Shown here piece after piece: positions 20,155-62,800 of a DNA stretch of 64,000 nt. The DNA is taken from NCBI RefSeq assembly GCF_009914755.1, contig NC_060934.1. The stretch is one strand, 5' to 3'. Under the pieces are notes generated by a model. The model searched no databases and had not been told where the DNA came from. It saw only the letters and a program-made list of their open reading frames with translations. A program made the position numbers and the translations under genes. This stretch comes from the human T2T-CHM13v2.0 reference genome, Homo sapiens. Numbering within the stretch: the stretch's first letter is position 1; every line of letters starts with the position of its first letter.

Positions 20155-20430
20155 CACAGTTTCTCAGTCCCTGCACTGTTGACATTCTGGGCAGGATAAT
20201 TTTTCACCCTGGGGAGCTGTCCTGTACCTTGCTGGATACTTAGCAGGGCCTGCCCAGTAGATCCCGGTAGCAGGATCCCCCTCCAGCTCTGTATGTTCTT
20301 CAGATGATTTGGGGATATCACTGGTATTTTAATAAGTTCTAGAATTTCCCCCATTGACATTGCCAGGATGTCAAGCCAGGATGTCTCAGCCATTGCCAAC
20401 TGTCCCGGGGGTAAGTGGGGCGGGATGGCC
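20155..20430 (-). mobile_element. MER20 (hAT-Charlie) interrupted by a 77-bp templated insert
   Basis: Matches recalled antisense MER20 (tttctca...cactgttgacattctgggcaggataat...gctgtcctgt...cattgccaactgtccc). Confidence 0.8.
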
Positions 20431-22494
20431 TAACTCATGGTAAACACTCAACAGCTGCTTACTGTTACTAATGATACTGTGTTATTAGCAGCAAAGTCAG
20501 CGAAGTCACTTCTGTATATTTGGGAAGAAAAGCTAGAAACCCCAACGACTTGGTCTGGCAGGGTGTGCAGGTGGGCACGGAGGATTCGGACAGGTGAGCA
20601 CGGAGGATTTGGAGGAGGAGAAAGTCAAGGTGCAGATGGGCACAGAGGATTTGGAGGAGGAGAAAGCCGAGAGGGAGTGTGGGGGCCCTTCGGCCAAGCT
20701 TCTTGGCTGTCTAAAGATCATTAGGAGCTGGCTGTGTTTCATTCTCCTTCTGAGAGACAAACATGAGTTTCTCTTGAGGCCAGGAGTGATGTGCAGATGA
20801 ACACGAATTGTGTGGCTCATCCCAACATGTCCTTTAAGAAACCCCATGCAGGCTGCTTAGAGACCTTCCTAAACGCAGGAACTCAAGCATTTGCTTCTTG
20901 GAGTTCTATTTGCTGGAATAAAGGCACTTATCAACCTCTTTTTTATTTTTCGAAAATAATAACTTATTTTCTTTAACATAATTGACTTCACCAGAGGCAA
21001 ATACCGATTTAGCAGGAAGGAAATGTGATTATTTTCCTTTCTAATTGCTGTGCTTCTATTAACTTCACAAGATTTGTTTTCAAGTCCTCCTAACGTCATA
21101 AGTGTTTTCCTGACAATTTTTCAAAGGCAGGAATCGTCCTGTTCCTCCAGGCACCGTGGCCAAGTGGCCAGATTTCTTCACATTATTCTTGGGGGTTGTT
21201 GCTTTGAGAATCAGCCCAGTGAGGCCAAGGGGAAGGGGAGGTGGGGGTGTGTGCAGGAGGCCTGAGACTTAGGTGACCCCGATGACGGTCTGTGCTATTT
21301 CCATACTCAGGCTCTGTGGCCGTCAGCCCGTTGCTCTGAGGGACAAAAGCTTTCTTATCCCAACCCAGGCTGGATGACCCCCCGATCCCGCGTTGCTCTC
21401 TGCAGTTCTGCGACATGCTTCCCCTCCAGTCCCCCTGGGGGCAGGTGGTGGCTCCGTGTCCCCTGCTAGACGGAGGGCCCTCGAGGGTGAGGCCTTAATC
21501 CTGTTGCTTTCTCTCTTCCCAGCACCTGCTGTGGTCCCTGGCACACCTTGCCGTACATTGAATGAAGGCAAAGGGAGAGATTTCATCTTAGCAAAATGTC
21601 ATGAACTGCCTGGAGAACCATGAGTTTTCTGTTGGTGGGGAGTTACGTCTTGGAGGGGGCGCCACTTCCAGGACTAAGGCAGTGTCGGCTCAGCTCGAGA
21701 ATGCAGTGGGTGACGGGGTCAGCAGCCCTAAAACTCCCTCCACCCCGGCTGTGGGAAGCACCCACTGGGGGCTCCATCCCGATGGGCTTCCTGAGCTAAA
21801 ATGGGTGCTTTGTCCATGCTGGATAAATATGTGGCGATGTTGGTGGGTTGGGCAAGTCAGTTACACGACTCTGTATGTTCTTCAGATGATTTGGGGATAT
21901 CACTGTTATTTTAATAAGTTCTAGAATTTCCCCCATTGACATTGCTACAAGGCAATTAAATTAAATTAAAGTTCCTTCTTAATAAAATGTTCCAGTAAAA
22001 CACTTTCCTAGTCCCCTTGTTGATACGTTTGTCTGCAGTGACTGGATTAGCTGGCGGGAGAATAGAAGAAAAGTGGATTTTGAAGGGAGATTGTGCTTGA
22101 GTCACGCTTCCAGCTCCTAGTCATTGTGGGACCCCAGTGGGGCTCCCCAGAGCTTTCGGGTCTTGATCATCTGTAAAATGAGGGTCCTGCCACCAGTCTT
22201 TTCTGCTCCCAAATGCAGTAATGAAAAGCCAATGAAATCAAAGTATATAATATATATGCTAAAGTACTTTGTAATTATAAAGCATTAAACAGCTAAAAGG
22301 AATAATAAATTCTGTTCAGAGCACAGATTGGCAAGCTTTTTCTGCAGAGATCTAGAAAATAAATACTTTAGGTTTTGCAGGCCAAGAGGCAAAATGGAGG
22401 ATACTATGTTAAGACATTAAACCTAGAACTACCATCTGACCCAGTGATTCTTCTCTTAGGTGTGCACCCAGAAGAAGTAGAAACAGTTCACATA

Positions 22495-22906
<412 letters not shown>

Positions 22907-23267: not shown

Positions 23268-23588
<321 letters not shown>

Positions 23589-23616
23589 TAGGTAATTTAT
23601 AAGAAAAGAGGTATAA

Positions 23617-23921: not shown

Positions 23922-24514
23922 GGAAAGAGTTATAATTGGCTCATGTTTCTGTAAGCTGTACAGGAGTCATGGTGCTGGCATCTGCTTCTGGAGAGGCATC
24001 CGGAAACTTCCAATCATGGCAGAAGGGGAAGGGAGAGCCAATGCATCACAGGACAAGAGCAGGAGCAAGAGAGGGGAGGAGCTGCCACACTCTAGTCCAG
24101 TCTAGACCACACACTGGTCTAGAGTCTTAGAATCTTTTAGTTTTAGAATAATGACCATTATTTTTGTAACAACCAGTGTCTCGGGAACTCACTGAGTAAG
24201 AACTTGGTCCTCACCAAGAGGATGGTGCGAAGCCATTCCGGAGGGAGGCGCCATGATCCAAATCCCTCCCACAAGGCCCATCTTCAACATTGGGGATCAC
24301 ATTTCCACAAGAGATTTGGAGGGGACAGACATCCAAATGGTATCAGTGACTTTGGGGTTTCCTTATGCAGTGATGAAAATACTTAAGAACTAGACAGAGG
24401 TGGTGGTTGCACAACATTAGGAATGTACTAAATATTACACACTACTAAATTGTATACTTTAAAATGGTTAATTTTCTGTTATGTTAGTTTTACCTCCTTT
24501 AAAAAAAAAGATGA

Positions 24515-24831
<317 letters not shown>

Positions 24832-24916
24832 TTAGCTTATGGGCAGTATAAAGCTAAGCTGTGGGCCACATTTGGCCCATAGGCTGTAGTTTGCTGACCT
24901 CTGGTCTAGAGTCTTA

Positions 24917-25745
<829 letters not shown>

Positions 25746-25820
25746 GTGTAGAGAGAAACAGGCAGAGAAATAGGAGAGTTGAAGGGTACCCCACCCTCCT
25801 TGATTTCTAGTTGAGGAAAT

Positions 25821-26190
25821 GGAGGCTGTGAGTGCTGGAACTGAGCGGGGGGACTTGAGTGCTGGAACTGAGCAGGGGGAACTGAATGCTGGAACTGAGC
25901 AGGGGGAACTGAATGCTGGAACTGAGCAGGGGGAACTGAGTGCTGGAACTCAGTAGGGGGAGGCTGTGAGTGCTGGAACTCAGTAGGGGGAGGCTGTGAG
26001 TGCTGGAACTCAGTAGGGGGAGGCTGTGAGTGCTGGAACTCAGTAGTGGGAGGCTGTGAGTGCTGGAACTCAGTAGGGGGAGGCTGTGAGTGCTGGAACT
26101 CAGTAGGGGGAGGCTGTGAGTGCTGGAACTCAGTAGCGGGAGGCTGTGCATGCTGGAACTCAGTAGGGGGAGGCTGTGAGTGCTGGAACT
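25821..26190. repeat. Minisatellite with 27-bp units grading into 30-bp units (~12 copies)
   Basis: gaggctgtgagtgctggaactcagtagggg with period 30. Earlier units gaactgagcagggggaactgaatgctg with period 27. Confidence 0.93.
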
Positions 26191-27067: not shown

Positions 27068-27364
<297 letters not shown>

Positions 27365-27408
27365 GGCCTTATGTGAACATGTCTAAACACATACACACAC
27401 ATTGCAGA

Positions 27409-28212: not shown

Positions 28213-28652
28213 TTATGGGTTGAGTCCCCTGAAAAGACAGGTTGAAGTCCTAACCCTTAGTGCCTCAGAGTGTGACCTTACTTGGAAATGGGGTCATCAC
28301 AGATGTAATTCGTTAAGATGTGGTCATACTGGATTAAGGTGGGCGTTTAATCCAATATGCCTGGTGTCCTTGTTAAGAAGAGGAGGGACACGTGAGAACT
28401 CAGCCAAGTGAGGATGGAGGCAGAAGTGGGCGTTACACGGCCGCAAGCCAAGGAGTGTCCAGCAGCCCGTAGGGCTCCCTGGAGCTGGAAGAGGCAAGGA
28501 GGAAGTCTCCCCCAGAGGGTTTGGAGGGAGCATGGCCCTGTAGGCACCTTAATTTCTGACATCTGGCCTCTGAAACTGTGAGAAAATAAATATCTGTTAT
28601 TAGAAGCCACCAAGCTTTGGTACTTTGTGTGGCAGCCCCGGGATACTGACAC
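28213..28652 (+). mobile_element. MLT1B/C-like LTR
   Basis: ttatgggttga...gaagtcctaaccc...tgtgaccttacttggaaat...tttgtgtggcagccc...actgacaca. Confidence 0.8.
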
Positions 28653-29982: not shown

Positions 29983-30451
29983 CTGAGAGCCGTGTCCACG
30001 GCTGGTGTCCATGCGTCCCAGGCCCTGCCCCCAGGGACTTCAGTGGAGCCCGCAGCCTGACTCGTAAACTTGCTCAGTATTCTTAAGCCTCCAGCTTAAG
30101 ATGTGGTCATGCTAGATTAGGGTGGGCCTTTAATCCAGGATGCCTGGTGTCCTTGTTAAGAAGAGGAGGGACACATGAGAACTCAGCTGTGTCCTGAGAG
30201 CTGTGTCCTCGGCTGGTGTCCATGTGTCTCAGGCCCTGCCCCCAAGGGCCTCAGTGGAGCCTGCAGTCTGACTTGTGAACTTGCCCAGTATTCTTAAGCC
30301 TCCAGCTTAAGGTGTGGTCATACTGGGTTAGGGTGGGCCTTTAATCCAATATGCGTGATGTCCTTGTTAAGAAGAGGAGGGACGCATGAGAACTCAGCCA
30401 TGTGAGGATGGAGGCAGAAGTGGGTGTTACACGACCACAAGCCAAGGAGTG
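29983..30451. repeat. 211-bp tandem duplication containing a copy of the neighbouring MLT1 segment
   Basis: Units 29983-30187 and 30194-30398. 30307-30451 matches 28313-28457. Confidence 0.88.
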
Positions 30452-32050: not shown

Positions 32051-33944
32051 TGCACGATTCTTGGACACAGCAGCAAAGGCTGGCTGAACTTCCTCTGGCC
32101 CAGGCCTGCACTACGTGCTTCACTTCTTACCTCCCTGAGCCTTCCCCGTGACCATCGGGGTGGGGAACAGGTGCCCTTCCCGGGTGGGTTGGCATGGGCG
32201 CCGGTGGTCCTCTTGGCCGCTTTGCTGTTCTGTCTCCTTAGAGGGGATGCAGCGCCTCCTCCTGCATTTCCAGGGCTGGCCCTCTCCAGCCTTGTGAGAC
32301 TGGAGATTCTGATTCTGTGGTTGAAGGCCTTGCATGGGCAAGGCCTGGCCTGGGGTCACTGGCCTCGTGCACAGGAGTCCAGGCCAAGGCAAGGTTTTGC
32401 CAAGGTTGGCATCTAAGACATGTAGAGACAAAGCTGCCTGTGCTGCCCCGATTGCATTAGCCATGGCAGAGAAGTGTGGACATCAGCACAAGGACTCGGG
32501 GCCCAGTCCCTGGTTTTCTCTAGGTGAGTACCCCCTACTGGGTTTTTGGCTATTTGGACATCAGGTGGTTTCTGACAGTTTTGAGATGCTTGACCTGAGG
32601 ACATGAAAGGGGAGCTGATAGAGGACGGACTCCCTGTCTCTTCATCAGATCCTGCAAGGGCCCATCTCCCCTGCCCATGGGCAGTGCCAGCATCAGATTC
32701 CCTGCGTCGAGGATGGGGGCCCCAGGAAGCCAGTTTATTTTGGAGTTGGGAATTCTCTTGGGCTAGTTGCTGCACGCCCACCGAGCCAGGTCTCTGACCC
32801 AGGAGGGATGGAGTATCTCGGAAATAAGATCTGGGCAGTATAATCCCAGAGGATGGTGGGTGGGAGAGACAACAGTGTGTTTTCACTGCAAGCCTCTCAT
32901 GAGCTTAGACTTGGAGAGACATGGATAGAAGCCAGGGGGAGAAGTCCAGACGGGATACTTTCACTTTCTATAAAATTAAAATGAATACCATTCCAGGCTG
33001 TCCTGGAGGAGCATTTGCACGCTGTGCAGCTGTGAGGTTTGGAGGGGTGAAGACACCAGGATGCATGGCTGATCCTTCTCTGTGTGGAAGTCTGTCTTGG
33101 AGCAGTGGGTGGTACCTGGTCTGGTGGCACCGGGGGAAGCGAGGCCCAGAAGTGCAGGTTCAGGAGCCCGAGCTGAGCTGAGCACAGGGAACACAACAGT
33201 GTGTTTTTGCTGGAAGCCTCTCATGGGCTCAGACTTGGAGAGGCATGGATAGAATCCAAAGACAGAAGCCCCCACTGGGGTTGGGGTGGGGCCTCATCTG
33301 TTGAATGGGGTGGTCGACTTTCCAGGAGTTTTCCAGCTCCACATTCCCATGTATTTCAGGGAAGCCATTCTGAAGCGGGAGGTGGTACAGCACAGAGTTT
33401 ATGCAGTCAGGCTCTGGCGGACGGCCTTCCTGTCACTTCCAGGAACCAATGTGTCTTCATCTATCGACTGAGGATATGCGTGGCCCCTGCTCTCCCTGGG
33501 CTTCGGGAGGATGCAGAGTCACTGGAAAGTGCTTAATCTTGTGCCTGGTACAGAGTACCTGGCATTATTATTAGCCCAGCCAGCTCAAACTCAATCTCCC
33601 CTTCCAGAGGTTACTTAGAAAGGTAACAAAGAATTGTCAGGTAGTAGAAAGGCATTAAGTCTTTTGTTAGCAAGATGGAATAAAAGTGGGCCACTGAGAC
33701 AGTTCATAGAATATTGATGGAGACGCTGATGACTCCTGAGATGCTACGTATTGGATGTGTGGATTCTGGAAGGTTGAGGATAGTCAAAGCTGAACTCCAG
33801 AATCAGTATTCAGAGTGCTTGATTATCTGAGCCCACAGGCCTAGCATTGAAGGAACCTCCTGCAGGCTAAATGTGAAGTTTAAAATTAGGGACTTGGATC
33901 AGCTGATGACTGCAAAATAGCAGAGAAGGGCCTTCAAAGCCATG

Positions 33945-34075: not shown

Positions 34076-35510
34076 TCCTGTCCTCCCGGGAAGACCTAGA
34101 GATTGCTTTTGACTAAACCCAATCAACAGGCTGATAGGATTTCTCGAAAAGTAAAATTAGCACCATTCCAGGCTGAACTGGAGGAGCATTGGAACACTGC
34201 AGCTGTGAGGTTTGGAGAGGCGGAGACACCAGGATATGTGGCCGTGTGGGACTCTGTCTTGGAGCAGCGGGTGGGACCTGGTCTGGTGGCACCAGGGGAA
34301 ACAAGGCCCAGCAGTGCAGGTTCCAGAGCCCCTGTTGAGCTGAGCTTAGGAGGCCCTTTGTGGTAGGTAAGGGGTGGACCGTCGCTGAAGTACCACGGCC
34401 CTCACTGGTAGAGGTGGGCGCACTGGGCCACTGGCTGATGCACAGGGCACAGGCGACTGCAGAATATCTCCAAGTCCCTCTCCGCTTGACATTTGGTTCA
34501 ATTACTGCCAGACTTGGGGGAACTTTCCCTCACCGCAGGTGCCCAGAGTTCAGATCAGGCCAAGAACTGGGCCCAGTGTCACCGTCAGCTCCTGGCCAAC
34601 TCCTCCCCTCCTGCTCTGGGGTCTCTCGTATATGTGTCCTTCAGTCCTTTTTCCATAGGTTGGCCTGGATATATGTGGAGGAGTCTGAGGCATTTTTGAG
34701 CTTGTGGAGGAGGACTGGGAGGACCTTGGCTTTGGATGTCTGGACAAGCAGAAGGCCCAGGGCCAGGGCCTTGATGTGGGGACCTTCCTCTGGGAGGCTG
34801 CCAATGTGGCAGGGCTTCCCACAATCAGGACAGATTCTGTGGAGGTGTTGAGATTTGCAGCTCTTGTGGGTGCGTTGAGGTGAAAGTACAACTTCATTTT
34901 AGGGGAAACAAATGTTTCTGATCAAAATGGTTAATGTTTGTGCTGTGTAGTAGATGCCTACAGCGGCAGCCTCTCCCAGTGGACACCTTTCGTTGGGTGA
35001 AGCTGTTACTGTAAGTGCCAAGATGAGAAATGATACTGTCTGTCCTTAAGGATTTAACTTTTGCCACTGTCAGAGGGGTAAGGAAGAAGCCAGCCTGGGC
35101 CCTTCGGTGTCCTCTAGAGCTGGGTTGCCTCCTGCCTGTAAAAGTTAAACAATGTAAGAATGCACAAGGATTCTGTAGAGCTCCCTGTACTTCCTGGGTT
35201 TTGCATGTGGCATTTGCTGAGGGTTCCCTGTCCTGCCTGCTGGCCTAGGGAGGGGGTAAAAAGATGGAGGAAGCAGGACATTGATTTTGGAGTGCCCTGA
35301 GTCAGCCCCCCGGATGAGCAGGAGGACATACATGCAGGGCAAACGGGAGGTTCCGCCCCTGGAAATGATGAGGTGTGTATTCCTTCTGCTTCTCTTTGAG
35401 GCATTGATGTTTTGTGGGAGGAGGGAGACATTTGCTGAGGGGCCATTTGAACCTCTCCAACATGAATTCTCCATTGATCTTATAATAGTGAATTTGAAGC
35501 TATTTTAATC

Positions 35511-41956: not shown

Positions 41957-42469
<513 letters not shown>

Positions 42470-43161
42470 TAATTAGTTTATCAAGTAAAATTTGACTTGT
42501 ATTGACAAGAACTGGAGTTGTGATAGCAAACAGTAATTGCTAACTCTATCTTATCAGGGAAATCAAAAGCGTCTATTGAATTACAGTGACTCTATTATAT
42601 TGCCCTGTAACCTCACCAAGATGATTCTTCGGAGGATGATTAAATGTAGTCATGAATCCATATATATGAGAAAGCAAACAGATGGATAAACAACCAAAGT
42701 AATTATCATCTGTACATTCACATTTTTCCATCACAATATTTCAGGGACCTGCTGGTCCAGAGTCATCTGTTTGGTCATTGTCTGGGAGGATGACATTCTT
42801 CATAAAATGTGCTCGGTTGGTTTATCTGCCGTGCAGTGTTACCAGAGGGCATTTCAGCTGTTTAAACTCCCAGAAAGTGTTGGTAGCTTCCTTGTTTTTA
42901 TTGGTGTCTAGTGGACACAGGGGACAAGAGTAAGTTTGATGGGATGTATCCTGTGGTTATGAGAGGAGATGCTATACTGTGTAAAGAAACCTCTAAAAAC
43001 CAGTTTAAAAAGATTGTTTTATGGATAGATTGCATTACCTAAATTCTGATGAAATATTTCATTTCATGGTGCTAGTTTTAACTTTAGTCTTTTAAAACAC
43101 AAAAGTAAAACCAATCCAACAACAAAAACATCTTCAAAACCGCAGTTAAACAGCATCTGTG

Positions 43162-43608
<447 letters not shown>

Positions 43609-43713
43609 TTATTCTCTTTTAAGCTGCTTTGTTTAAAGGATTCTAAAGTCACATCATGAGGAGGGGAGAGCCAAGAGGGTGTCGGATGTGTGTTGTCACT
43701 CTGATATTTGCTC

Positions 43714-44009
<296 letters not shown>

Positions 44010-44276
44010 GATATTTGCTCATTTTCTGAGTGTTTTGTGAGTCCTGAGGAATGAGCTCAAGGAGGAGATGGGTTCATTCCTTCTTCTAGGTTTCTTTTCG
44101 AGTGGGGTGAAGCTCACTTTTAGTTTCAGGTGGAAGCTGTGCACTGGATTCATTTGGGAGCAGGTTGGCAGGTAGAACAGTAGAATAAATCGTGAAGACC
44201 TACAAGCGTTAGAATGCGAGAGGAATGGATGGAGCTGCTCCTTCCTTCTGATTTGCAGGAAGTTTCCTTAATGGAA

Positions 44277-48560: not shown

Positions 48561-48929
48561 TCTTTGCTGGAGGAAGTGCGTTAGTGCCCATCTCACGGTC
48601 ACAGCGGACAGGCTCACTTCTTGGATCAGACGCTCATTGTGAAGCAGATCAATGCAGTGAGAATGCAGGTCTGATCCTGTCCCCCCATCCCTGGCCCATG
48701 ACTGGGGAGAGATGCGGTCCAAGGACTGGTACCTGGAGGCTTGGCAGCAGCATGCCCTCCTTCCTCCTGCTCTTTGCCTCAGTCTTTGCGTGCAGAAATG
48801 GGATTGCTGTTAGCCCTATTTCATAGGGTTGATATGGGATGATGTGGTATTCCATGGTGTTTCTGGTCTTTCTCAGGGCAGAATAAAGTTTACCTCTGCC
48901 ATGATGATGGTGGTGCTGGTAATGTGGTT

Positions 48930-51900
48930 GATGATGGTGGTGGTTGGTAGTACTACTGTTGGTGGTGATGGTGGTGGTTGGTAGTATTACTGTTGGTGGT
49001 GATGGTGGTGGTTGGTAGTATTACTGTTGGTGATGGTGGTGGTTGGTAGTATTACTGTTGGTGGTGATGGTGGTGGTTGGTAGTATTACTGTTGGTGGTG
49101 ATGGTGGTGGTTGGTAGTATTACTGTTGGTGGTGGTGGTGGTGGTTGGTAGTATTACTGTTGGTGGTGATGGTGGTGGTTGGTAGTATTACTGTTGGTGG
49201 TGGTGGTGGTTGGTAGTATTACTGTTGGTGGTGGTGGTGGTGGTTGGTAGTATTACTGTTGGTGGTGGTGGTGGTGGTTGGTAGTATTACTGTTGGTGGT
49301 GGTGGTGGTGGTTGGTAGTATTACTGTTGGTGGTGATGGTGGTGGTTGGTAGTATTACTGTTGGTGGTGATGGTGGTGGTTGGTAGTATTACTGTTGGTG
49401 GTGGTGGTGGTGGTTGGTAGTATTACTGTTGGTGGTGGTGGTGGTGGTTGGTAGTATTACTGTTGGTGATGGTGGTGGTGGTTGGTAGTATTACTGTTGG
49501 TGGTGATGGTGGTGGTTGGTAGTATTACTGTTGGTGGTGATGGTGGTGGTTGGTAGTATTACTGTTGGTGGTGATGGTGGTGGTTGGTAGTATTACTGTT
49601 GGTGGTGGTGGTGGTGGTTGGTAGTATTACTGTTGGTGGTGGTGGTGGTGGTTGGTAGTATTACTGTTGGTGGTGGTGGTGGTGGTTGGTAGTATTACTG
49701 TTGGTGGTGGTGGTGGTGGTTGGTAGTATTACTGTTGGTGGTGATGGTGGTGGTTGGTAGTATTACTGTTGGTGGTGATGGTGGTGGTTGGTAGTATTAC
49801 TGTTGGTGGTGATGGTGGTGGTTGGTAGTATTACTGTTGGTGGTGATGGTGGTGGTTGGTAGTATTACTGTTGGTGGTGATGGTGGTGGTTGGTAGTATT
49901 ACTGTTGGTGGTGGTGGTGGTGGTTGGTAGTATTACTGTTGGTGGTGGTGGTGGTGGTTGGTAGTATTACTGTTGGTGGTGGTGGTGGTGGTTGGTAGTA
50001 TTACTGTTGGTGGTGGTGGTGGTGGTTGGTAGTATTACTGTTGGTGGTGGTGGTGGTGGTTGGTAGTATTACTGTTGGTGGTGATGGTGGTGGTTGGTAG
50101 TATTACTGTTGGTGGTGATGGTGGTGGTTGGTAGTATTACTGTTGGTGGTGGTGGTGGTGGTTGGTAGTATTACTGTTGGTGGTGGTGGTGGTGGTTGGT
50201 AGTATTACTGTTGGTGGTGGTGGTGGTGGTTGGTAGTATTACTGTTGGTGGTGATGGTGGTGGTTGGTAGTATTACTGTTGGTGGTGATGGTGGTTGGTA
50301 GTATTACTGTTGGTGGTGATGGTGGTTGGTAGTATTACTGTTGGTGGTGATGGTGGTGGTTGGTAGTATTACTGTTGGTGGTGATGGTGGTTGGTAGTAT
50401 TACTGTTGGTGGTGATGGTGGTGGTTGGTAGTATTACTGTTGGTGGTGATGGTGGTGGTTGGTAGTATTACTGTTGGTGGTGATGGTGGTGGTTGGTAGT
50501 ATTACTGTTGGTGGTGGTGGTGGTGGTTGGTAGTATTACTGTTGGTGGTGGTGGTGGTGGTTGGTAGTATTACTGTTGTTGGTGATGGTGGTGGTTGGTA
50601 GTATTACTGTTGGTGGTGATGGTGGTGGTTGGTAGTATTACTGTTGGTGGTGATGGTGGTTGGTAGTATTACTGTTGGTGGTGATGGTGGTTGGTAGTAT
50701 TACTGTTGGTGGTGATGGTGGTGGTTGGTAGTATTACTGTTGGTGGTGATGGTGGTTGGTAGTATTACTGTTGGTGGTGATGGTGGTGGTTGGTAGTATT
50801 ACTGTTGGTGGTGATGGTGGTGGTTGGTAGTATTACTGTTGGTGGTGATGGTGGTGGTTGGTAGTATTACTGTTGGTGGTGGTGGTGGTGGTTGGTAGTA
50901 TTACTGTTGGTGGTGGTGGTGGTGGTTGGTAGTATTACTGTTGTTGGTGATGGTGGTGGTTGGTAGTATTACTGTTGGTGGTGATGGTGGTGGTTGGTAG
51001 TATTACTGTTGGTGGTGATGGTGGTGGTTGGTAGTATTACTGTTGGTGGTGGTGGTGGTGGTTGGTAGTATTACTGTTGGTGGTGGTGGTGGTGGTTGGT
51101 AGTATTACTGTTGGTGGTGGTGGTGGTGGTTGGTAGTATTACTGTTGGTGGTGGTGGTGGTGGTTGGTAGTATTACTGTTGGTGGTGATGGTGGTGGTTG
51201 GTAGTATTACTGTTGGTGGTGATGGTGGTGGTTGGTAGTATTACTGTTGGTGGTGATGGTGGTGGTTGGTAGTATTACTGTTGGTGGTGATGGTGGTGGT
51301 TGGTAGTATTACTGTTGGTGGTGATGGTGGTGGTTGGTAGTATTACTGTTGGTGGTGATGGTGGTGGTTGGTAGTATTACTGTTGGTGGTGATGGTGGTG
51401 GTTGGTAGTATTACTGTTGGTGGTGATGGTGGTGGTTGGTAGTATTACTGTTGGTGATGGTGGTGGTTGGTAGTATTACTGTTGGTGGTGGTGGTGGTGG
51501 TTGGTAGTATTACTGTTGGTGGTGGTGGTGGTGGTTGGTAGTATTACTGTTGGTGGTGGTGGTGGTGGTTGGTAGTATTACTGTTGGTGGTGGTGGTGGT
51601 GGTTGGTAGTATTACTGTTGGTGGTGGTGGTGGTGGTTGGTAGTATTACTGTTGGTGGTGGTGGTGGTGGTTGGTAGTATTACTGTTGGTGGTGGTGGTG
51701 GTGGTTGGTAGTATTACTGTTGGTGGTGATGGTGGTGGTTGGTAGTATTACTGTTGGTGGTGATGGTGGTGGTTGGTAGTATTACTGTTGGTGGTGATGG
51801 TGGTGGTTGGTAGTATTACTGTTGGTGGTGATGGTGGTTGGTAGTATTACTGTTGGTGGTGATGGTGGTGGTTGGTAGTATTACTGTTGGTGGTGATGGT

Positions 51901-54900
51901 GGTGGTTGGTAGTATTACTGTTGGTGGTGATGGTGGTGGTTGGTAGTATTACTGTTGGTGGTGGTGGTGGTGGTTGGTAGTATTACTGTTGGTGGTGGTG
52001 GTGGTGGTTGGTAGTATTACTGTTGTTGGTGATGGTGGTGGTTGGTAGTATTACTGTTGGTGGTGATGGTGGTGGTTGGTAGTATTACTGTTGGTGGTGA
52101 TGGTGGTTGGTAGTATTACTGTTGGTGGTGATGGTGGTTGGTAGTATTACTGTTGGTGGTGATGGTGGTGGTTGGTAGTATTACTGTTGGTGGTGATGGT
52201 GGTTGGTAGTATTACTGTTGGTGGTGATGGTGGTGGTTGGTAGTATTACTGTTGGTGGTGATGGTGGTGGTTGGTAGTATTACTGTTGGTGATGGTGGTG
52301 GTTGGTAGTATTACTGTTGGTGGTGGTGGTGGTGGTTGGTAGTATTACTGTTGGTGGTGGTGGTGGTGGTTGGTAGTATTACTGTTGGTGGTGGTGGTGG
52401 TGGTTGGTAGTATTACTGTTGGTGGTGGTGGTGGTGGTTGGTAGTATTACTGTTGGTGGTGGTGGTGGTGGTTGGTAGTATTACTGTTGGTGGTGGTGGT
52501 GGTGGTTGGTAGTATTACTGTTGGTGGTGGTGGTGGTGGTTGGTAGTATTACTGTTGGTGGTGATGGTGGTGGTTGGTAGTATTACTGTTGGTGGTGATG
52601 GTGGTTGGTAGTATTACTGTTGGTGGTGATGGTGGTTGGTAGTATTACTGTTGGTGGTGATGGTGGTGGTTGGTAGTATTACTGTTGGTGGTGATGGTGG
52701 TTGGTAGTATTACTGTTGGTGGTGATGGTGGTGGTTGGTAGTATTACTGTTGGTGATGGTGGTGGTTGGTAGTATTACTGTTGGTGGTGGTGGTGGTGGT
52801 TGGTAGTATTACTGTTGGTGGTGGTGGTGGTGGTTGGTAGTATTACTGTTGGTGGTGGTGGTGGTGGTTGGTAGTATTACTGTTGGTGGTGGTGGTGGTG
52901 GTTGGTAGTATTACTGTTGGTGGTGATGGTGGTGGTTGGTAGTATTACTGTTGGTGGTGATGGTGGTGGTTGGTAGTATTACTGTTGGTGGTGATGGTGG
53001 TGGTTGGTAGTATTACTGTTGGTGGTGATGGTGGTTGGTAGTATTACTGTTGGTGGTGATGGTGGTGGTTGGTAGTATTACTGTTGGTGGTGATGGTGGT
53101 GGTTGGTAGTATTACTGTTGGTGGTGATGGTGGTGGTTGGTAGTATTACTGTTGGTGGTGGTGGTGGTGGTTGGTAGTATTACTGTTGGTGGTGGTGGTG
53201 GTGGTTGGTAGTATTACTGTTGTTGGTGATGGTGGTGGTTGGTAGTATTACTGTTGGTGGTGATGGTGGTGGTTGGTAGTATTACTGTTGGTGGTGATGG
53301 TGGTTGGTAGTATTACTGTTGGTGGTGATGGTGGTTGGTAGTATTACTGTTGGTGGTGATGGTGGTGGTTGGTAGTATTACTGTTGGTGGTGATGGTGGT
53401 TGGTAGTATTACTGTTGGTGGTGATGGTGGTGGTTGGTAGTATTACTGTTGGTGGTGATGGTGGTGGTTGGTAGTATTACTGTTGGTGGTGATGGTGGTG
53501 GTTGGTAGTATTACTGTTGGTGGTGGTGGTGGTGGTTGGTAGTATTACTGTTGGTGGTGGTGGTGGTGGTTGGTAGTATTACTGTTGTTGGTGATGGTGG
53601 TGGTTGGTAGTATTACTGTTGGTGGTGATGGTGGTGGTTGGTAGTATTACTGTTGGTGGTGATGGTGGTGGTTGGTAGTATTACTGTTGGTGGTGGTGGT
53701 GGTGGTTGGTAGTATTACTGTTGGTGGTGGTGGTGGTGGTTGGTAGTATTACTGTTGGTGGTGGTGGTGGTGGTTGGTAGTATTACTGTTGGTGGTGGTG
53801 GTGGTGGTTGGTAGTATTACTGTTGGTGGTGATGGTGGTGGTTGGTAGTATTACTGTTGGTGGTGATGGTGGTGGTTGGTAGTATTACTGTTGGTGGTGA
53901 TGGTGGTGGTTGGTAGTATTACTGTTGGTGGTGATGGTGGTGGTTGGTAGTATTACTGTTGGTGGTGATGGTGGTGGTTGGTAGTATTACTGTTGGTGGT
54001 GATGGTGGTGGTTGGTAGTATTACTGTTGGTGGTGATGGTGGTGGTTGGTAGTATTACTGTTGGTGGTGATGGTGGTGGTTGGTAGTATTACTGTTGGTG
54101 ATGGTGGTGGTTGGTAGTATTACTGTTGGTGGTGGTGGTGGTGGTTGGTAGTATTACTGTTGGTGGTGATGGTGGTGGTTGGTAGTATTACTGTTGGTGG
54201 TGATGGTGGTGGTTGGTAGTATTACTGTTGGTGGTGATGGTGGTGGTTGGTAGTATTACTGTTGGTGGTGATGGTGGTGGTTGGTAGTATTACTGTTGGT
54301 GGTGATGGTGGTGGTTGGTAGTATTACTGTTGGTGGTGATGGTGGTGGTTGGTAGTATTACTGTTGGTGGTGATGGTGGTGGTTGGTAGTATTACTGTTG
54401 GTGGTGGTGGTGGTGGTTGGTAGTATTACTGTTGGTGGTGGTGGTGGTGGTTGGTAGTATTACTGTTGGTGATGGTGGTGGTGGTTGGTAGTATTACTGT
54501 TGGTGGTGATGGTGGTGGTTGGTAGTATTACTGTTGGTGGTGATGGTGGTTGGTAGTATTACTGTTGGTGGTGATGGTGGTTGGTAGTATTACTGTTGGT
54601 GGTGATGGTGGTCGTTGTTAGTATTACTGTTGGTGGTGATGGTGGTTGGTAGTATTACTGTTGGTGGTGATGGTGGTGGTGGTTGGTAGTATTACTGTTG
54701 GTGGTGATGGTGGTGGTGGTTGGTAGTATTACTGTTGGTGGTGATGGTGGTAGTTGGTAGTATTACTGTTGGTGGTGATGGTGGTGGTTGGTAGTATTAC
54801 TGTTGGTGGTGATGGTGGTGGTTGGTAGTATTACTGTTGGTGGTGGTGGTGGTGGTTGGTAGTATTACTGTTGGTGGTGATGGTGGTGGTTGGTAGTATT

Positions 54901-57900
54901 ACTGTTGGTGGTGATGGTGGTGGTTGGTAGTATTACTGTTGGTGGTGATGGTGGTGGTTGGTAGTATTACTGTTGGTGGTGGTGGTGGTGGTTGGTAGTA
55001 TTACTGTTGGTGGTGGTGGTGGTGGTTGGTAGTATTACTGTTGGTGATGGTGGTGGTGGTTGGTAGTATTACTGTTGGTGGTGATGGTGGTGGTTGGTAG
55101 TATTACTGTTGGTGGTGATGGTGGTGGTTGGTAGTATTACTGTTGGTGGTGATGGTGGTGGTTGGTAGTATTACTGTTGGTGGTGGTGGTGGTGGTTGGT
55201 AGTATTACTGTTGGTGGTGGTGGTGGTGGTTGGTAGTATTACTGTTGGTGGTGGTGGTGGTGGTTGGTAGTATTACTGTTGGTGGTGGTGGTGGTGGTTG
55301 GTAGTATTACTGTTGGTGGTGATGGTGGTGGTTGGTAGTATTACTGTTGGTGGTGATGGTGGTGGTTGGTAGTATTACTGTTGGTGGTGATGGTGGTGGT
55401 TGGTAGTATTACTGTTGGTGGTGGTGGTGGTGGTTGGTAGTATTACTGTTGGTGGTGGTGGTGGTGGTTGGTAGTATTACTGTTGGTGGTGATGGTGGTG
55501 GTTGGTAGTATTACTGTTGGTGGTGATGGTGGTGGTTGGTAGTATTACTGTTGGTGGTGATGGTGGTGGTTGGTAGTATTACTGTTGGTGGTGGTGGTGG
55601 TGGTTGGTAGTATTACTGTTGGTGGTGGTGGTGGTGGTTGGTAGTATTACTGTTGGTGGTGGTGGTGGTGGTTGGTAGTATTACTGTTGGTGGTGGTGGT
55701 GGTGGTTGGTAGTATTACTGTTGGTGGTGGTGGTGGTGGTTGGTAGTATTACTGTTGGTGGTGATGGTGGTGGTTGGTAGTATTACTGTTGGTGGTGATG
55801 GTGGTGGTTGGTAGTATTACTGTTGGTGGTGGTGGTGGTGGTTGGTAGTATTACTGTTGGTGGTGGTGGTGGTGGTTGGTAGTATTACTGTTGGTGGTGG
55901 TGGTGGTGGTTGGTAGTATTACTGTTGGTGGTGATGGTGGTGGTTGGTAGTATTACTGTTGGTGGTGGTGGTGGTGGTTGGTAGTATTACTGTTGGTGGT
56001 GGTGGTGGTGGTTGGTAGTATTACTGTTGGTGGTGGTGGTGGTGGTTGGTAGTATTACTGTTGGTGGTGATGGTGGTGGTTGGTAGTATTACTGTTGGTG
56101 GTGATGGTGGTGGTTGGTAGTATTACTGTTGGTGGTGATGGTGGTGGTTGGTAGTATTACTGTTGGTGGTGATGGTGGTGGTTGGTAGTATTACTGTTGG
56201 TGGTGATGGTGGTGGTTGGTAGTATTACTGTTGGTGGTGATGGTGGTGGTTGGTAGTATTACTGTTGGTGGTGATGGTGGTGGTTGGTAGTATTACTGTT
56301 GGTGGTGATGGTGGTGGTTGGTAGTATTACTGTTGGTGATGGTGGTGGTTGGTAGTATTACTGTTGGTGGTGGTGGTGGTGGTTGGTAGTATTACTGTTG
56401 GTGGTGATGGTGGTGGTTGGTAGTATTACTGTTGGTGGTGATGGTGGTGGTTGGTAGTATTACTGTTGGTGGTGATGGTGGTGGTTGGTAGTATTACTGT
56501 TGGTGGTGATGGTGGTGGTTGGTAGTATTACTGTTGGTGGTGATGGTGGTGGTTGGTAGTATTACTGTTGGTGGTGATGGTGGTGGTTGGTAGTATTACT
56601 GTTGGTGGTGATGGTGGTGGTTGGTAGTATTACTGTTGGTGGTGGTGGTGGTGGTTGGTAGTATTACTGTTGGTGGTGGTGGTGGTGGTTGGTAGTATTA
56701 CTGTTGGTGATGGTGGTGGTGGTTGGTAGTATTACTGTTGGTGGTGATGGTGGTGGTTGGTAGTATTACTGTTGGTGGTGATGGTGGTTGGTAGTATTAC
56801 TGTTGGTGGTGATGGTGGTTGGTAGTATTACTGTTGGTGGTGATGGTGGTCGTTGTTAGTATTACTGTTGGTGGTGATGGTGGTTGGTAGTATTACTGTT
56901 GGTGGTGATGGTGGTGGTGGTTGGTAGTATTACTGTTGGTGGTGATGGTGGTGGTAGTTGGTAGTATTACTGTTGGTGGTGATGGTGGTAGTTGGTAGTA
57001 TTACTGTTGGTGGTGATGGTGGTGGTTGGTAGTATTACTGTTGGTGGTGATGGTGGTGGTTGGTAGTATTACTGTTGGTGGTGGTGGTGGTGGTTGGTAG
57101 TATTACTGTTGGTGGTGATGGTGGTAGTTGGTAGTATTACTGTTGGTGGTGATGGTGGTGGTTGGTAGTATTACTGTTGGTGGTGATGGTGGTGGTTGGT
57201 AGTATTACTGTTGGTGGTGGTGGTGGTGGTTGGTAGTATTACTGTTGGTGGTGGTGGTGGTGGTTGGTAGTATTACTGTTGGTGGTGATGGTGGTGGTTG
57301 GTAGTATTACTGTTGGTGGTGGTGGTAGTTGGTAGTATTACTGTTGGTGGTGATGGTGGTAGTTGGTAGTATTACTGTTGGTGGTGATGGTGGTGGTTGG
57401 TAGTATTACTGTTGGTGGTGGTGGTGGTGGTTGGTAGTATTACTGTTGGTGGTGATGGTGGTGGTTGGTAGTATTACTGTTGGTGGTGATGGTGGTTGGT
57501 AGTATTACTGTTGGTGGTGGTGGTGGTGGTTGGTAGTATTACTGTTGGTGGTGATGGTGGTAGTTGGTAGTATTACTGTTGGTGGTGATGGTGGTGGTTG
57601 GTAGTATTACTGTTGGTGGTGGTGGTGGTGGTTGGTAGTATTACTGTTGGTGGTGGTGGTGGTGGTTGGTAGTATTACTGTTGGTGGTGGTGGTGGTGGT
57701 TGGTAGTATTACTGTTGGTGGTGATGGTGGTGGTTGGTAGTATTACTGTTGGTGGTGATGGTGGTGGTTGGTAGTATTACTGTTGGTGGTGGTGGTGGTG
57801 GTTGGTAGTATTACTGTTGGTGGTGATGGTGGTTGGTAGTATTACTGTTGGTGGTGATGGTGGTGGTTGGTAGTATTACTGTTGGTGGTGGTGGTAGTTG

Positions 57901-59835
57901 GTAGTATTACTGTTGGTGGTGATGGTGGTAGTTGGTAGTATTACTGTTGGTGGTGATGGTGGTGGTTGGTAGTATTACTGTTGGTGGTAGTATTACTGTT
58001 GGTGGTGATGGTGGTGGTTGGTAGTATTACTGTTGGTGGTGGTGGTGGTGGTTGGTAGTATTACTGTTGGTGGTGATGGTGGTTGGTAGTATTACTGTTG
58101 GTGGTGATGGTGGTGGTTGGTAGTATTACTGTTGGTGGTGGTGGTAGTTGGTAGTATTACTGTTGGTGGTGATGGTGGTAGTTGGTAGTATTACTGTTGG
58201 TGGTGATGGTGGTGGTTGGTAGTATTACTGTTGGTGGTAGTATTACTGTTGGTGGTGATGGTGGTGGTTGGTAGTATTACTGTTGGTGATGGTGGTGGTT
58301 GGTAGTATTACTGTTGGTGGTGGTGGTGGTGGTTGGTAGTATTACTGTTGGTGGTGATGGTGGTAGTTGGTAGTATTACTGTTGGTGGTGGTGGTGGTGG
58401 TTGGTAGTATTACTGTTGGTGGTGGTGGTGGTTGGTAGTATTACTGTTGGTGGTGGTGGTGGTAGTTGGTAGTATTACTGTTGGTGGTGGTGGTGGTAGT
58501 TGGTAGTATTACTGTTGGTGGTGATGGTGGTGGTTGGTAGTATTACTGTTGGTGGTGGTGGTGGTGGTTGGTAGTATTACTGTTGGTGATGGTGGTGGTT
58601 GGTAGTATTACTGTTGGTGGTAGTATTACTGTTGGTGGTGATGGTGGTGGTTGGTAGTATTACTGTTGGTGATGGTGGTGGTTGGTAGTATTACTGTTGG
58701 TGGTGGTGGTGGTGGTTGGTAGTATTACTGTTGGTGGTGATGGTGGTAGTTGGTAGTATTACTGTTGGTGGTGGTGGTGGTGGTTGGTAGTATTACTGTT
58801 GGTGGTGGTGGTGGTTGGTAGTATTACTGTTGGTGGTGGTGGTGGTAGTTGGTAGTATTACTGTTGGTGGTGGTGGTGGTAGTTGGTAGTATTACTGTTG
58901 GTGGTGATGGTGGTGGTTGGTAGTATTACTGTTGGTGGTGGTGGTGGTGGTTGGTAGTATTACTGTTGGTGATGGTGGTGGTTGGTAGTATTACTGTTGG
59001 TGGTGATGGTGGTGGTTGGTAGTATTACTGTTGGTGGTGATGGTGGTGGTTGGTAGTATTACTGTTGGTGATGGTGGTGGTTGGTAGTATTACTGTTGGT
59101 GGTGATGGTGGTGGTTGGTAGTATTACTGTTGGTGGTGATGGTGGTAGTTGGTAGTATTACTGTTGGTGGTGATGGTGGTGGTTGGTAGTATTACTGTTG
59201 GTGGTGGTGGTGGTGGTTGGTAGTATTACTGTTGGTGGTGGTGGTGGTGGTTGGTAGTATTACTGTTGGTGGTGGTGGTGGTGGTTGGTAGTATTACTGT
59301 TGGTGGTGGTGGTGGTGGTTGGTAGTATTACTGTTGGTGGTGGTGGTGGTGGTTGGTAGTATTACTGTTGGTGGTGATGGTGGTGGTTGGTAGTATTACT
59401 GTTGGTGGTGATGGTGGTGGTTGGTAGTATTACTGTTGGTGGTGATGGTGGTGGTTGGTAGTATTACTGTTGGTGGTGATGGTGGTGGTTGGTAGTATTA
59501 CTGTTGGTGGTGATGGTGGTAGTTGGTAGTATTACTGTTGGTGGTGGTGGTGGTGGTTGGTAGTATTACTGTTGGTGGTGATGGTGGTAGTTGGTAGTAT
59601 TACTGTTGGTGGTGGTGGTGGTGGTTGGTAGTATTACTGTTGGTGGTGATGGTGGTAGTTGGTAGTATTACTGTTGGTGGTGGTGGTGGTTGGTAGTATT
59701 ACTGTTGGTGGTGATGGTGGTGGTTGGTAGTATTACTGTTGGTGGTGATGGTGGTGGTTGGTAGTATTACTGTTGGTGGTGATGGTGGTGGTTGGTAGTA
59801 TTACTGTTGGTGGTGGTGGTGGTGGTGGTGGTGGT
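48930..59835. repeat. Giant 34-bp-unit minisatellite (GGTAGTATTACTGTTGGTGGTG[A/G]TGGTGGTGGTT)n, roughly 320 copies
   Basis: Units start at 48946, 48980, 49014 and so on. 31-, 37- and 18-bp length variants. Copy number estimated as length divided by unit size. Confidence 0.97.
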
Positions 59836-62800
59836 AATACTGCTGGTGGTGATTGTGTTGGTAGTACTGATGTTGCTGGTGAGGGTGATGAAGGTGGTAA
59901 TACTGTCCAGCCGGGCCTTTTGAGGGCATCTGGATGAACCTCTTTTTTACGTGGGGTGGGGTCGGGATAGGCACCCTGAAACAGGGCCCTCAAAATGCTC
60001 CAGGCCACAGATGGAGAAGGAAAGTTTCCCGATGTGGGGTTGCAGGGTCAGGTATGCTGAGCCAGAGGCACTGCTTCCCAGGAATCCTCACCTCTCGGAG
60101 CCTGTGATGCGGGCGCCCAGCTGTGCAGCTGCCATCCAGCCTGGATCCCAAGCTTCCCCTCCCTGGAATCATTCTGAGCTGCTCTGATCCTTTGGGCTGG
60201 ATTTTCCATCCTCTCCCTCAAAGGGAACCTTGCCCCCTATGCCTTTCCTGAGGTTGGGGATATGTGTGCTGGGCCTGGCCCAGGGTAGTACTGGGGTTGC
60301 GTGAGAAGGCAGGTCTGGAGCTGGTTGTATGCCTGGGCCCCGCAAGCTGGGCTTTCAGAATCCCTTTCAGTGGCCCGGGCCCACCCCCTGGACCCTGTTC
60401 CCTTTGTAACTGAGCTTTCGTCTTTGCTTTGGTTCCCTGGCCACCCTTCGGGATCCTGGCCTCCCCTTTCTGGGAGTGGTGCACGTTCTGCTGGGGGGAG
60501 GTGCATCCTGCCCTTGCTGCCTGCCTGGCACTCTGGGTTCCCCTCTGCACTTGTTTGCTGATCCATCTCCATTGAGTCCCGAAGGTGTTTATTGAAGGTG
60601 ACCTGGGTTGGGGGACATGGGGTTAACACACCCAGCTCCTGCTCTCCTGCAGCCCTCTCCCTGTGGGGAATGGGGAGCCGCAGGACAGCCCCTAAGCTGT
60701 CTAGTGCCTCTGGGGATTCCAGGAAGGCACTTCTTGGGTGGACATGTTGCTTGACAAGTGCAACCCAGGCAGGATTTCGGCTCCCACGTGTCCCTTCAGC
60801 CCTGAGCCTTTGGCAGTGAACACACCTACCAACTATACATGGCAGTCCAAAGTGGGTAGGTGTGTGAGGGAGGGTTGGTCCTATGATGAGACCCATTCTT
60901 GTGAATTCCTTTTTCCCAGGGCATCAGTACATCCCCTGCTTAATTTCAGAGCAGCAAGGGCAGAGCTGGGACATGGTTGGATCTCTCTGTGATGAGAGCA
61001 TCGGGTGTTGAATGTCCTTTCTGTGCTATAACTATAAATTCATGTTAGACAGCAAAATGTAGGCATTTGACTGATGCAGGAAGGATCTGGAGGGGAAAAG
61101 TATTACTCAAGAATATTTCACCTAAAAAGGACTTTGTGACAAGGTTTGCTTGTGACAGTCCTTGTATGATATTGGGTGATATTTCTTGTGACTTTTGTTT
61201 TGACATGTCTCTGGCTGGTTTTATGAGGGCTATTTGGGGAGCACCAAAGGGAGAGTGGCCAGAGAGGCAAAGCTCTGTCTGGCTCTCGATGGGAGGGCTG
61301 TGCTTTTTTAGAGTGTGGAGCCGCGTGTTATGCAGCATGCAGTGTTGTGGCTAGGGACAGAAGCTGGGTCGGAAACATTAGCCCCCCAAAGCAGGTTTCT
61401 CCCACCTTCTAGACCTGCGTCTTTGAGGAGCCATCTAACATCCTCTCTAAGCCTCATTTTTTTTTTTCCATTTGTGAAATGGGAATGAGTAGTAATCCCT
61501 CCCTTGTAAAGTTTTTGTGATAATGAAATTAGATAAATTAGGTAGTCCACGAGAAGCAGTCAGTGGCTGTTCCATGGTAAGGGGCTAATAGCTCTCATTA
61601 CAGCTTTTCCTAGTTGTGTTATTTGGAGAGCAGGTTCCTAATTCGAGTTCGCCACAGCTTATCTGTGTCATGTCTTGTCTCCTCTTTGGGTGGCAGTTCT
61701 TACCTGGGATCTTGGGTGGTAAATATTGGTTTGTTGGTCTGGATTGACTGGATGATTGGAGGTCTGGTCTGTGCTTGCCTGCAGGGTCAGCTTAGCCTAG
61801 CTGTGACATGTAAAGGCTCTCTCTCCTTTAGACTGGGGTTCCATTCATGGGATTAATGGAATTGTTATTTCATCCTGTCTCAAGGGCTTTCTGGAATAAG
61901 GGCAATGGGGCCTTTGACAGTGCCCAGAATTGTCACTGTCCCTTTGAAGCAAAGGGAAATCGGTTGCAGAGAGAGGGACTCTGCAGCCTTTGTTGTGGAC
62001 GCAGCAGTACAGTTACTCTTTGTTTGGGATGTGCTGGGAGTGCTGTTCTCAGAGCAAGGCCACATGATGCCTGGAGGTGGGGCGGCAGCATGCCCTCCTT
62101 CCTCCTGCTCTTTGCCTCAGAGTCTTTGTGTGCAGAAATGGGGTTTTTGTTAGCCCCACTTCATAGGGTTAATATGGGATGATGTGAGGAAATGCGTCAA
62201 GTGTTCGTTGGAGTTTCTGGTCTTTCCCAGGGCAGAATGAAGTTTAACTCTACCATGATGATGGTGGTACTGGTGATAGCGGTGGTGCTGGTGATGTTGG
62301 TGATGTTATTGTTGATGATGGTGGTTGGTAGTATTGCTGTTGGCGGTGATGGTGGTGGTGGTAACATTGCTGGCGGTGATTGTGTTGGTAGTATTGATGT
62401 TGGTGGGGGTGGTGAAGGTGGTAGTATTGTTGGTAGTAGTAGTATTGGTGATGGTGGTGGTAGTATTGTTTTTGGTAGTGTTTTTAGTATTGATGATAGT
62501 GGTGGTAGTGTTGTTGGTAGTATTGTTGGTAGTGTTAGCATGGTTGTTGGTGGTAGTATTACTGGTAGTAGTGTTGGTGATAGTGGTGATGGTGGTAGTA
62601 TTGGTAGTGGTGGTGGTAATATTGGTGATGGTGGTAGTATTGGTAATATTAGTGATAGTGGTGGTGGTAGTATTGTTGGTAGTATTGGTAGTGTTAGTAG
62701 TGGTAGTATTGTTGGTAGTATTGTTGGTGATAGTGGTGATGGTAGTATTGTTGATAGTATTGGTAGTGGTGGTGGTAGTATTGGTGATGGTAGTAGTATT

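What the first reader, a model, noticed from the sequence alone, without database searches (positions are those of the whole stretch)
20287..62430. Recurrent short-range templated duplications: at least six events in ~40 kb of one intron
Seen, all in direct orientation and non-tandem: 20287-20363/21869-21945, 24114-24169/24901-24956, 30307-30451/28313-28457, 32966-33179/34141-34347, 41277-41397/42320-42439, and the 48732/62070 block. None shows a poly-A tail or classical retrotransposition TSD. Identities range from ~80% to 100%, so the events span a long period. Established: templated insertions from nearby DNA are a signature of Pol theta end joining and MMBIR/SDSA template switching. Inference: this intron may be a persistent break-repair hotspot with a 0.8-2.5 kb donor reach. 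Whether the density exceeds background is unknown.
Basis: partly seen in the sequence, partly recalled or inferred. Interest (0 to 1): 0.7.

Follow-up and report, generated by a model that had tools for sequence, protein, structure and literature searches.

The report
Six local repair-copy scars in DOCK1
The first intron of human DOCK1 holds six short stretches copied from DNA 0.7-2.2 kb away, likely scars of germline break repair of an already described kind; they are a few times denser than in a small control set, which does not establish a hotspot, and one copy likely seeded an 11-kb minisatellite.

Summary
All six pairs are real, direct and non-tandem; none arose in 10 shuffles. They are not independent repeat insertions. 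Two interrupt older repeats whose flanks are contiguous in distant copies. Two copy part of a neighbouring repeat, and two are unique. They fit the published class of repair-mediated duplications (Pace 2009, PMC2671141: donor under 5 kb, mean 1.2 kb, filler or microhomology, no poly-A), so the phenomenon and its reach are known. The hotspot claim is not shown. One pipeline gave 5 events in 51 kb here and 4-6 in about 148 kb of controls (27-41 per Mb): a 2.4-3.6-fold excess, p 0.055-0.13, and up to 7-fold, p 0.016, at the strictest cut. At those control rates tens to hundreds of such clusters are expected genome-wide. The 60 kb next door had no direct event. Divergences form two age classes, 0-1% and 8-14%. 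By-products: the 11-kb 34-mer VNTR lies inside one copy, and two inverted Alus show gene conversion.

The parts
20287..20363 (+). Event 1 acceptor, 77 bp, inserted in an old DNA-transposon copy (MER20-like; name recalled)
   Evidence: 76/77 to donor; only two genome matches; host flanks project to within 5 bp of each other in 8 of 13 distant copies
21869..21945 (+). Event 1 donor; lies inside the RefSeq enhancer 21456-22004
   Evidence: hub annotation
24094..24169 (+). Event 2 acceptor: 20-nt filler (24094-24113, holding a 9-nt inverted copy of the acceptor's start) plus 56-bp copy, inserted in a solo-LTR-type repeat (MST-like; name recalled)
   Evidence: 56/56; filler; host flanks 2-7 bp apart in 9 of 14 distant copies, within 13 bp in 12 of 14, three of these being paralogues of one region
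24901..24956 (+). Event 2 donor
28313..28457 (+). Event 3 donor, internal part of an intact LTR-type repeat (about 28205-28645; MLT1-like, name recalled)
   Evidence: distant family copies align across it at 67-74% over long spans, versus 92% for the local copy
29983..30451 (+). Event 3 acceptor complex: U(113)-M(92)-6 nt-U(113)-M(145); M pieces at 30096-30187 and 30307-30451
   Evidence: donor/M1/M2 differences split 5/4/3, so insertion and tandem duplication are about the same age
32869..33271 (+). Event 4 acceptor complex: A(79)-17 nt-B(32965-33183)-9 nt-A'(79)
   Evidence: A/A' 15.2% and B/donor 13.6% divergent; only local match in genome search
34140..34345 (+). Event 4 donor
41277..41397 (+). 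Event 5 acceptor: end of an Alu plus 48 bp of that Alu's unique flank
   Evidence: 105/121; unique tail 42/48
42320..42439 (+). Event 5 donor, spanning the edge of the Alu 42089-42397 and its flank
48732..59906 (+). Event 6 acceptor, inferred original length about 350 bp, now holding the VNTR
   Evidence: left part 19/183 and right part 7/78 mismatches to donor; left part matches only the donor in the genome search
48932..59887 (+). 34-bp GT-rich VNTR, 324 copies, 16 segment types with higher-order blocks; its unit matches the donor at 62313-62346
62070..62420 (+). Event 6 donor: unique 190 bp running into a GGT-rich low-complexity tract
43156..44014 (.). Inverted Alu pair (43156-43487 +, 43703-44014 -) with a likely gene-conversion tract at about 43221-43357; a seventh local templated event, not in the finding
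   Evidence: two variants found only in this pair (2 of 60 and 2 of 43 motif sites in the pool); 3 mismatches in 137 bp versus 11 in the first 56 bp

Best explanation
These are six real short copies of nearby DNA, likely repair-mediated duplications left by separate germline double-strand breaks, and their clustering is likely the upper tail of a common process in a somewhat unstable distal region rather than a dedicated hotspot. Shown: each copy, its donor, the direct orientation, the 0.7-2.2 kb gaps, the interrupted host repeats (events 1, 2), the fillers (events 2-4) and the absence of poly-A. Inferred: a break at the acceptor site is resected 1-2 kb each way; one 3' end primes at a short match on the opposite resected tail or on the sister or homologue (giving direct orientation), copies 56-350 nt, lets go, and is rejoined to the other end, sometimes after short extra rounds of priming that leave the fillers (Pol theta-like). 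Inferred: events 3-6 date from the anthropoid era, events 1-2 are much younger, and the VNTR expanded inside copy 6 afterwards.
For: Anatomy matches Pace 2009 (read parts 1-6 of 8): donor under 5 kb, mean 1.2 kb, mean length 162 bp, and all 39 proximal breakpoints they inspected lacked poly-A/T and showed microhomology, filler or deletion. Host flanks are contiguous in distant copies. Uniqueness or far higher local identity. Gaps fit 1-2 kb of resection per side of meiotic breaks and the excess of hotspot SVs under 2 kb (PMC7615360, passages and section 10). The same kind of event turns up in controls: 6 events (4 with a direct copy) in about 148 kb effective, four confirmed as local-only by genome search. 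Donor side 5 downstream of 6 is not significant (p 0.22); Pace's chr10 rows split 22 to 20.
Against: The window exceeds controls in every comparison (2.4-7-fold). The 60 kb of direct neighbours held no direct event (one weak inverted 72% pair). Six acceptors fall within 28.4 kb of a 113-kb non-VNTR span (p 0.005 before selection). Both young events are here and none in controls (p 0.067). Controls are small and less GC-rich (39-45% versus 49%). No outgroup empty site was seen, so true microhomologies, dates and the direction of event 4 are inferred. No enzyme can be assigned from sequence.
Confidence: 0.68

Rival explanations
1. A persistent, locus-specific break or error-prone-repair hotspot in the first 13-42 kb of DOCK1 intron 1, active for tens of millions of years and so independent of any one PRDM9 allele (for example promoter-proximal transcription stress in a 558-kb gene).
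For: 0 direct events in 60 kb of neighbours versus 5-6 here (p 0.016-0.03 uncorrected); two age classes at one place; an Alu conversion and a giant VNTR in the same 30 kb; at the low end of the control interval (7 per Mb) only 0.05 such clusters are expected genome-wide.
Against: At the point estimates (26-39 per Mb) 78-658 clusters of six within 28.4 kb are expected by chance; the interval was drawn after seeing the events; Pace saw no trend to cluster; tandem arrays are raised in the neighbours too (12 in 124 kb versus 3 in 162 kb, p 0.004), which points to a regional effect.
Confidence: 0.2
2. Two-step origin: a 1-2.5 kb tandem duplication followed by deletion of most of one copy.
For: Gives the same direct orientation; event 4 (A-B-A' layout, equal divergences 15.2% and 13.6%) and event 3 fit it; tandem duplications are common here.
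Against: For events 1 and 2 the deletion would have to start within a few bases of the duplication junction; the 17- and 9-nt spacers of event 4 match neither expected neighbour.
Confidence: 0.07
3. Independent insertions of repeat families, retrotransposed or transduced copies, or assembly artefacts.
For: Events 3 and 5 contain repeat sequence; event 2 is 100% identical; the genome search for event 5 found neither a distant copy nor the local donor, so it was uninformative.
Against: Events 1, 4 and 6 match only locally; event 3 is 92% local versus 74% for the best long distant copy; event 5 includes 48 bp of unique flank at 42/48; no poly-A; five of six pairs differ in sequence and event 2 carries a structured filler.
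Confidence: 0.05

Closest known systems
Repair-mediated duplications (Pace, Sen, Batzer, Feschotte 2009, PMC2671141)
   Same: Length 56-350 bp, donor within 5 kb (their mean 1.2 kb), host repeat interrupted, fillers and small deletions, no poly-A, most events old.
   Different: Their catalogue (824, 0.62 per Mb of repeat DNA, called minimal) has no row labelled DOCK1 and none of its 42 proximal chr10 rows lies between hg18 126.1 and 130.9 Mb. Self-alignment here suggests a background of tens per Mb. Events 3 and 5 copy repeat sequence and would likely be filtered out by their method.
Doublets / short paired duplications (Thomas et al. 2004, PMC478600; paper not held, seen only as cited by Pace; details recalled)
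   Same: Short same-strand pairs about 1 kb apart; events 1 and 2 fit.
   Different: Events 3-6 are longer and 8-14% diverged, beyond an exact-match definition.
Pol theta templated insertions (10.1101/2019.12.20.882852, passages)
   Same: Short direct and inverted fillers from flanking DNA, as in the event 2 filler.
   Different: 3-30 bp and typically within 30 bp of the break; the main copies here are longer and 25-70 times farther away.
Meiotic-break insertions by template switching within resected DNA (PMC7615360, passages and section 10)
   Same: Insertion bias, sizes within the 1-2 kb resection range, higher rate near telomeres.
   Different: That work concerns present-day PRDM9 hotspots and polymorphisms; no DSB map could be laid over this window, and four events are likely far older than any current hotspot.

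Membership tests
Repair-mediated duplication (Pace 2009) | Insertion of at least 50 bp copied from a donor more than 50 bp and less than 5 kb away | tested here: met
   All six; gaps 731-2163 bp; event 6 measured from the acceptor's right end
Repair-mediated duplication (Pace 2009) | Acceptor interrupts a repeat whose two halves are contiguous within 30 bp | tested here: met
   Event 1: 8 of 13 distant copies within 5 bp (right-flank scores weak, 5 landed elsewhere); event 2: 12 of 14 within 13 bp. Not applicable to events 3-6
Repair-mediated duplication (Pace 2009) | Only one other copy in the genome | tested here: inconclusive
   Met for events 1, 4, 6 (the search can miss copies); event 2 had no distant hit, but only 40 of 3898 candidates were scored; events 3 and 5 contain repeat sequence
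Repair-mediated duplication (Pace 2009) | No poly-A/T tail | tested here: met
   the T5 at event 2 is part of the donor
Repair-mediated duplication (Pace 2009) | Filler, small deletion or microhomology at junctions | tested here: inconclusive
   Fillers of 20, 6, and 17 plus 9 nt at events 2, 3, 4 and a loss of about 2-7 bp at event 2; microhomology cannot be called without the empty site
Repair-mediated duplication (Pace 2009) | Empty orthologous site in an outgroup | not testable with these tools
   no primate genome held (no relatives)
Pol theta templated insertion (TINS) | 3-30 bp insert templated within about 30-50 bp of the break | tested here: not met
   Main copies are 56-350 bp from 0.7-2.2 kb; only the event 2 filler fits
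Doublets (Thomas 2004; definition recalled) | Exact match of 25-100 bp, same strand, about 1 kb apart | tested here: met
   Event 2 (56 bp exact) and event 1 (exact runs of 37 and 39 bp); events 3-6 are too diverged
Local mutational hotspot | Density above matched background after allowing for selection of the window | tested here: inconclusive
   2.4-7-fold, p 0.016-0.13 uncorrected; expected chance clusters range from 0.05 to thousands across the control interval

The most novel reading that the evidence does not exclude
The 5' part of DOCK1 intron 1 is a long-lived, PRDM9-independent hotspot of resection-range template capture. Over 30 million years or more it made six repair duplications, an inverted-Alu conversion and an enhancer-fragment copy, and one capture seeded an 11-kb minisatellite that now carries 187 matches to the recombination 13-mer, a direct case of a repair scar giving birth to a giant VNTR. 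Such captures may also be more than ten times commoner genome-wide than the published catalogue.
Probability: 0.18. Interest if true: 0.6.

Novelty: new member of a known kind. Interest (0 to 1): 0.27.

Why it matters
As members of a class described in 2004-2009 the six copies are ordinary. Three things keep some value. The small control set suggests such duplications occur at tens per Mb, far above the 0.62 per Mb of repeat DNA in the published minimal catalogue, which makes a T2T-wide recount and a real test of clustering feasible. A true hotspot lasting across many PRDM9 turnovers would contradict the reported lack of clustering. And event 6 shows a traceable origin for a very long VNTR, next to alternative DOCK1 exons (60298-60855).

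Tried and rejected
Independent repeat insertion, retrotransposition and chance similarity were rejected. Donor-side bias (5 of 6, p 0.22) and orientation difference from controls (p 0.45) are not significant. Distal enrichment in Pace's 42 chr10 rows is weak: 8 within 10 Mb of the ends (p 0.30), 14 within 15 Mb (p 0.08). Outside the VNTR the 13 matches to the degenerate 13-mer show no clear tie to acceptors; the nearest is 20583, 220 bp from event 1. Rows dropped before counts: six loci overlapping the window; two of three paralogous loci (L029, L030) from the control length; the L050 421/2330 pair (two end repeats of one LTR element, by recalled family features); two L050 pieces and two L054 pieces each merged into one event; boundary hits between the window and L046 that were GGT low-complexity matches. 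Event 6 is not found by the pipeline and was counted only in rows marked manual. The repeat finder output was swamped by the VNTR. The genome search for event 5 returned only itself. Thomas 2004 could not be read. Literature searches listed no paper on these DOCK1 duplications, this VNTR or clustering of such duplications; most subscription papers are not searched, and bioRxiv supplements were not seen. PMC7666470 names DOCK1 once in a gene table, unrelated as far as seen.
Full report
Observation. The sixth block is a copy at 48732-59906 of 62070-~62420. Its two ends match the donor at about 10% divergence, and an 11-kb array of a 34-bp unit (324 copies) sits between them. A uniform self-alignment filter (45 bits or more, gap 50 bp-5 kb, tandem arrays and multi-copy repeats removed) left 7 of 89 pairs in the window; they are exactly events 1-5 and their companions. 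Ten shuffles gave none.

Which copy is new. Event 1 (20287) splits an old repeat: its two flanks project to within 5 bp of each other in 8 of 13 distant copies, while 5 weak right-flank alignments landed elsewhere. Event 2 (24094-24169) splits an LTR-type repeat: flanks within 13 bp in 12 of 14 copies, three of them paralogues. It carries a 20-nt filler with a 9-nt inverted copy of its own start. In event 3 the copy at 28313 is the middle of an intact LTR-type repeat, and the fragments at 30096 and 30307 match it at 92% against 74% for the best long distant copy. They sit in a 211-bp tandem duplication of about the same age (differences split 5/4/3). Event 4 is a 219-bp copy between two 79-bp direct repeats with 17- and 9-nt spacers; it matches only locally, and its direction is inferred. 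Event 5 starts inside an Alu and runs 48 bp into the unique flank of the Alu at 42089-42397 (42/48). In event 6 the donor continues into a GGT-rich tract while the copy stops, and the VNTR unit matches the donor at 62313-62346, so the array likely grew inside the new copy. Repeat family names (MER20-, MST-, MLT1-like) are recalled; no repeat library was on hand.

Age. Ungapped divergences are 1/77, 0/56, 12/145, 28/206, 16/123 and 26/261; the last four are homogeneous (p 0.35). Pace's chr10 rows show 0-2.7% for human and human-chimp events and mostly 4-16% for events shared by all primates. Events 3-6 therefore look anthropoid-era and events 1-2 young, with wide intervals (upper limits 6-7%).

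Known class. Pace et al. 2009 (PMC2671141; main text parts 1-6 of 8 and Table S1 searches read) describe 824 human repair-mediated duplications with donors under 5 kb. Mean distance is 1.2 kb, mean length 162 bp, maximum 619 bp, with microhomology, filler or deletion and no poly-A in all 39 proximal cases inspected, and no trend to cluster. They link them to the doublets of Thomas 2004, which I could not read. Their table has no DOCK1 row, so these six appear uncatalogued there.

Density. Controls were six 10-kb chr10 neighbours, five 10-kb tiles about 7 Mb from other chromosome ends, and 37 loci of about 3.2 kb (35 counted), about 148 kb effective after edge correction. They held six events: L007 (465 bp, 82%, direct), L027 (141 bp, 86%, direct), L050 (direct, in two pieces), L054 (direct plus inverted), L028 (inverted) and a weak inverted pair in L045. 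The first four were local-only in genome searches. Rates are 41 per Mb (15-88) for all and 27 (7-69) for direct, against 97 in the window: ratios 2.4 and 3.6, p 0.13 and 0.055. At 100 bits the ratios are 4.7 and 7.0 (p 0.034, 0.016); counting event 6 by hand gives 2.9-4.3 (p 0.062, 0.023). For the hotspot: the neighbours, best matched in GC (45% versus 49%), held no direct event, also across tile edges, and six acceptors lie within 28.4 kb of 113 kb (p 0.005). Against it: the window was picked from about 48,700, and at 26-39 per Mb 78-658 such clusters are expected by chance; only near 7 per Mb does this fall to 0.05. Complex tandem arrays are raised across window and neighbours alike (12 in 124 kb versus 3 in 162 kb, p 0.004), as expected of a distal region. 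The test is underpowered; the hotspot is neither shown nor excluded.

Mechanism. Shown are the products. Inferred is the route: a germline break is resected, one 3' end primes at a short match 0.7-2.2 kb away on the opposite tail or the sister or homologue, copies 56-350 nt, disengages and is rejoined. Meiotic breaks are resected 1-2 kb per side, and hotspot SVs are enriched below 2 kb and biased to insertions (PMC7615360, passages and section 10). In cultured cells a third of insert donors lay within 2 kb of a cut site (10.1101/2022.09.30.509517, passages). Pol theta alone fits the fillers but not the main tracts: its inserts are 3-30 bp, typically from within 30 bp. A tandem duplication followed by deletion gives the same product and cannot be excluded for events 3 and 4 without outgroups.

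Extras. Two inverted Alus 215 bp apart share a 1-bp deletion and a substitution found in no other Alu of the pool (2 of 60 and 2 of 43 motif sites), with 3 mismatches in 137 bp: likely gene conversion. The VNTR has 187 minus-strand matches to the degenerate recombination 13-mer (motif recalled; a GGT-rich repeat matches it easily, so this is only a lead).

Verdict. Real, well supported members of a known class. The hotspot reading is about 0.2 likely. Interest 0.27.

Noticed in passing
window 43156-43487 / 43703-44014: Inverted Alu pair 215 bp apart sharing two private variants and a 137-bp tract with 3 mismatches; likely gene conversion.
   Followed up: partly
window 48932-59887: 11-kb VNTR, 34-bp unit, 16 segment types with repeated higher-order blocks, 86% G+T on the plus strand, 187 matches to the degenerate recombination 13-mer; lies inside the event 6 copy, 0.4 kb before alternative DOCK1 exons at 60298-60855.
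   Followed up: partly
window 21869-21945: The event 1 donor is inside a RefSeq enhancer (21456-22004), so 77 bp of it were copied 1.6 kb upstream.
   Followed up: no
window 18542-18794, 19862-20022, 25821-26190, 38676-38812, 40428-40825: Several further minisatellites and tandem duplications (63x4, 42x4, 30x13, 69x2, 16x25); the wider region is richer in them than distant controls.
   Followed up: partly
window 62256-64000 and L046:1-1120: Old GGT/GTA-rich low-complexity tract continuing about 1.1 kb past the window end, interrupted near 63105-63590 by other sequence including an Alu.
   Followed up: no
L007 (C17:35111567-35114694), L027 (C4:127595177-127596099), L050:7182-8606, L054:3111-4939, L028:142-687: Local non-tandem duplications in control DNA; L054 combines a direct and an inverted copy as a fold-back; suggests tens per Mb genome-wide.
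   Followed up: partly
L050:421-2669: Two 345-bp direct repeats, 89% alike, 1.56 kb apart; read as the two end repeats of one LTR element (family recalled) and excluded from counts.
   Followed up: no
DOCK1 (literature): Preprint 10.64898/2026.06.06.730619 lists DOCK1 among genes with very old polymorphisms in humans and Pan (one passage); position within the gene not seen.
   Followed up: no
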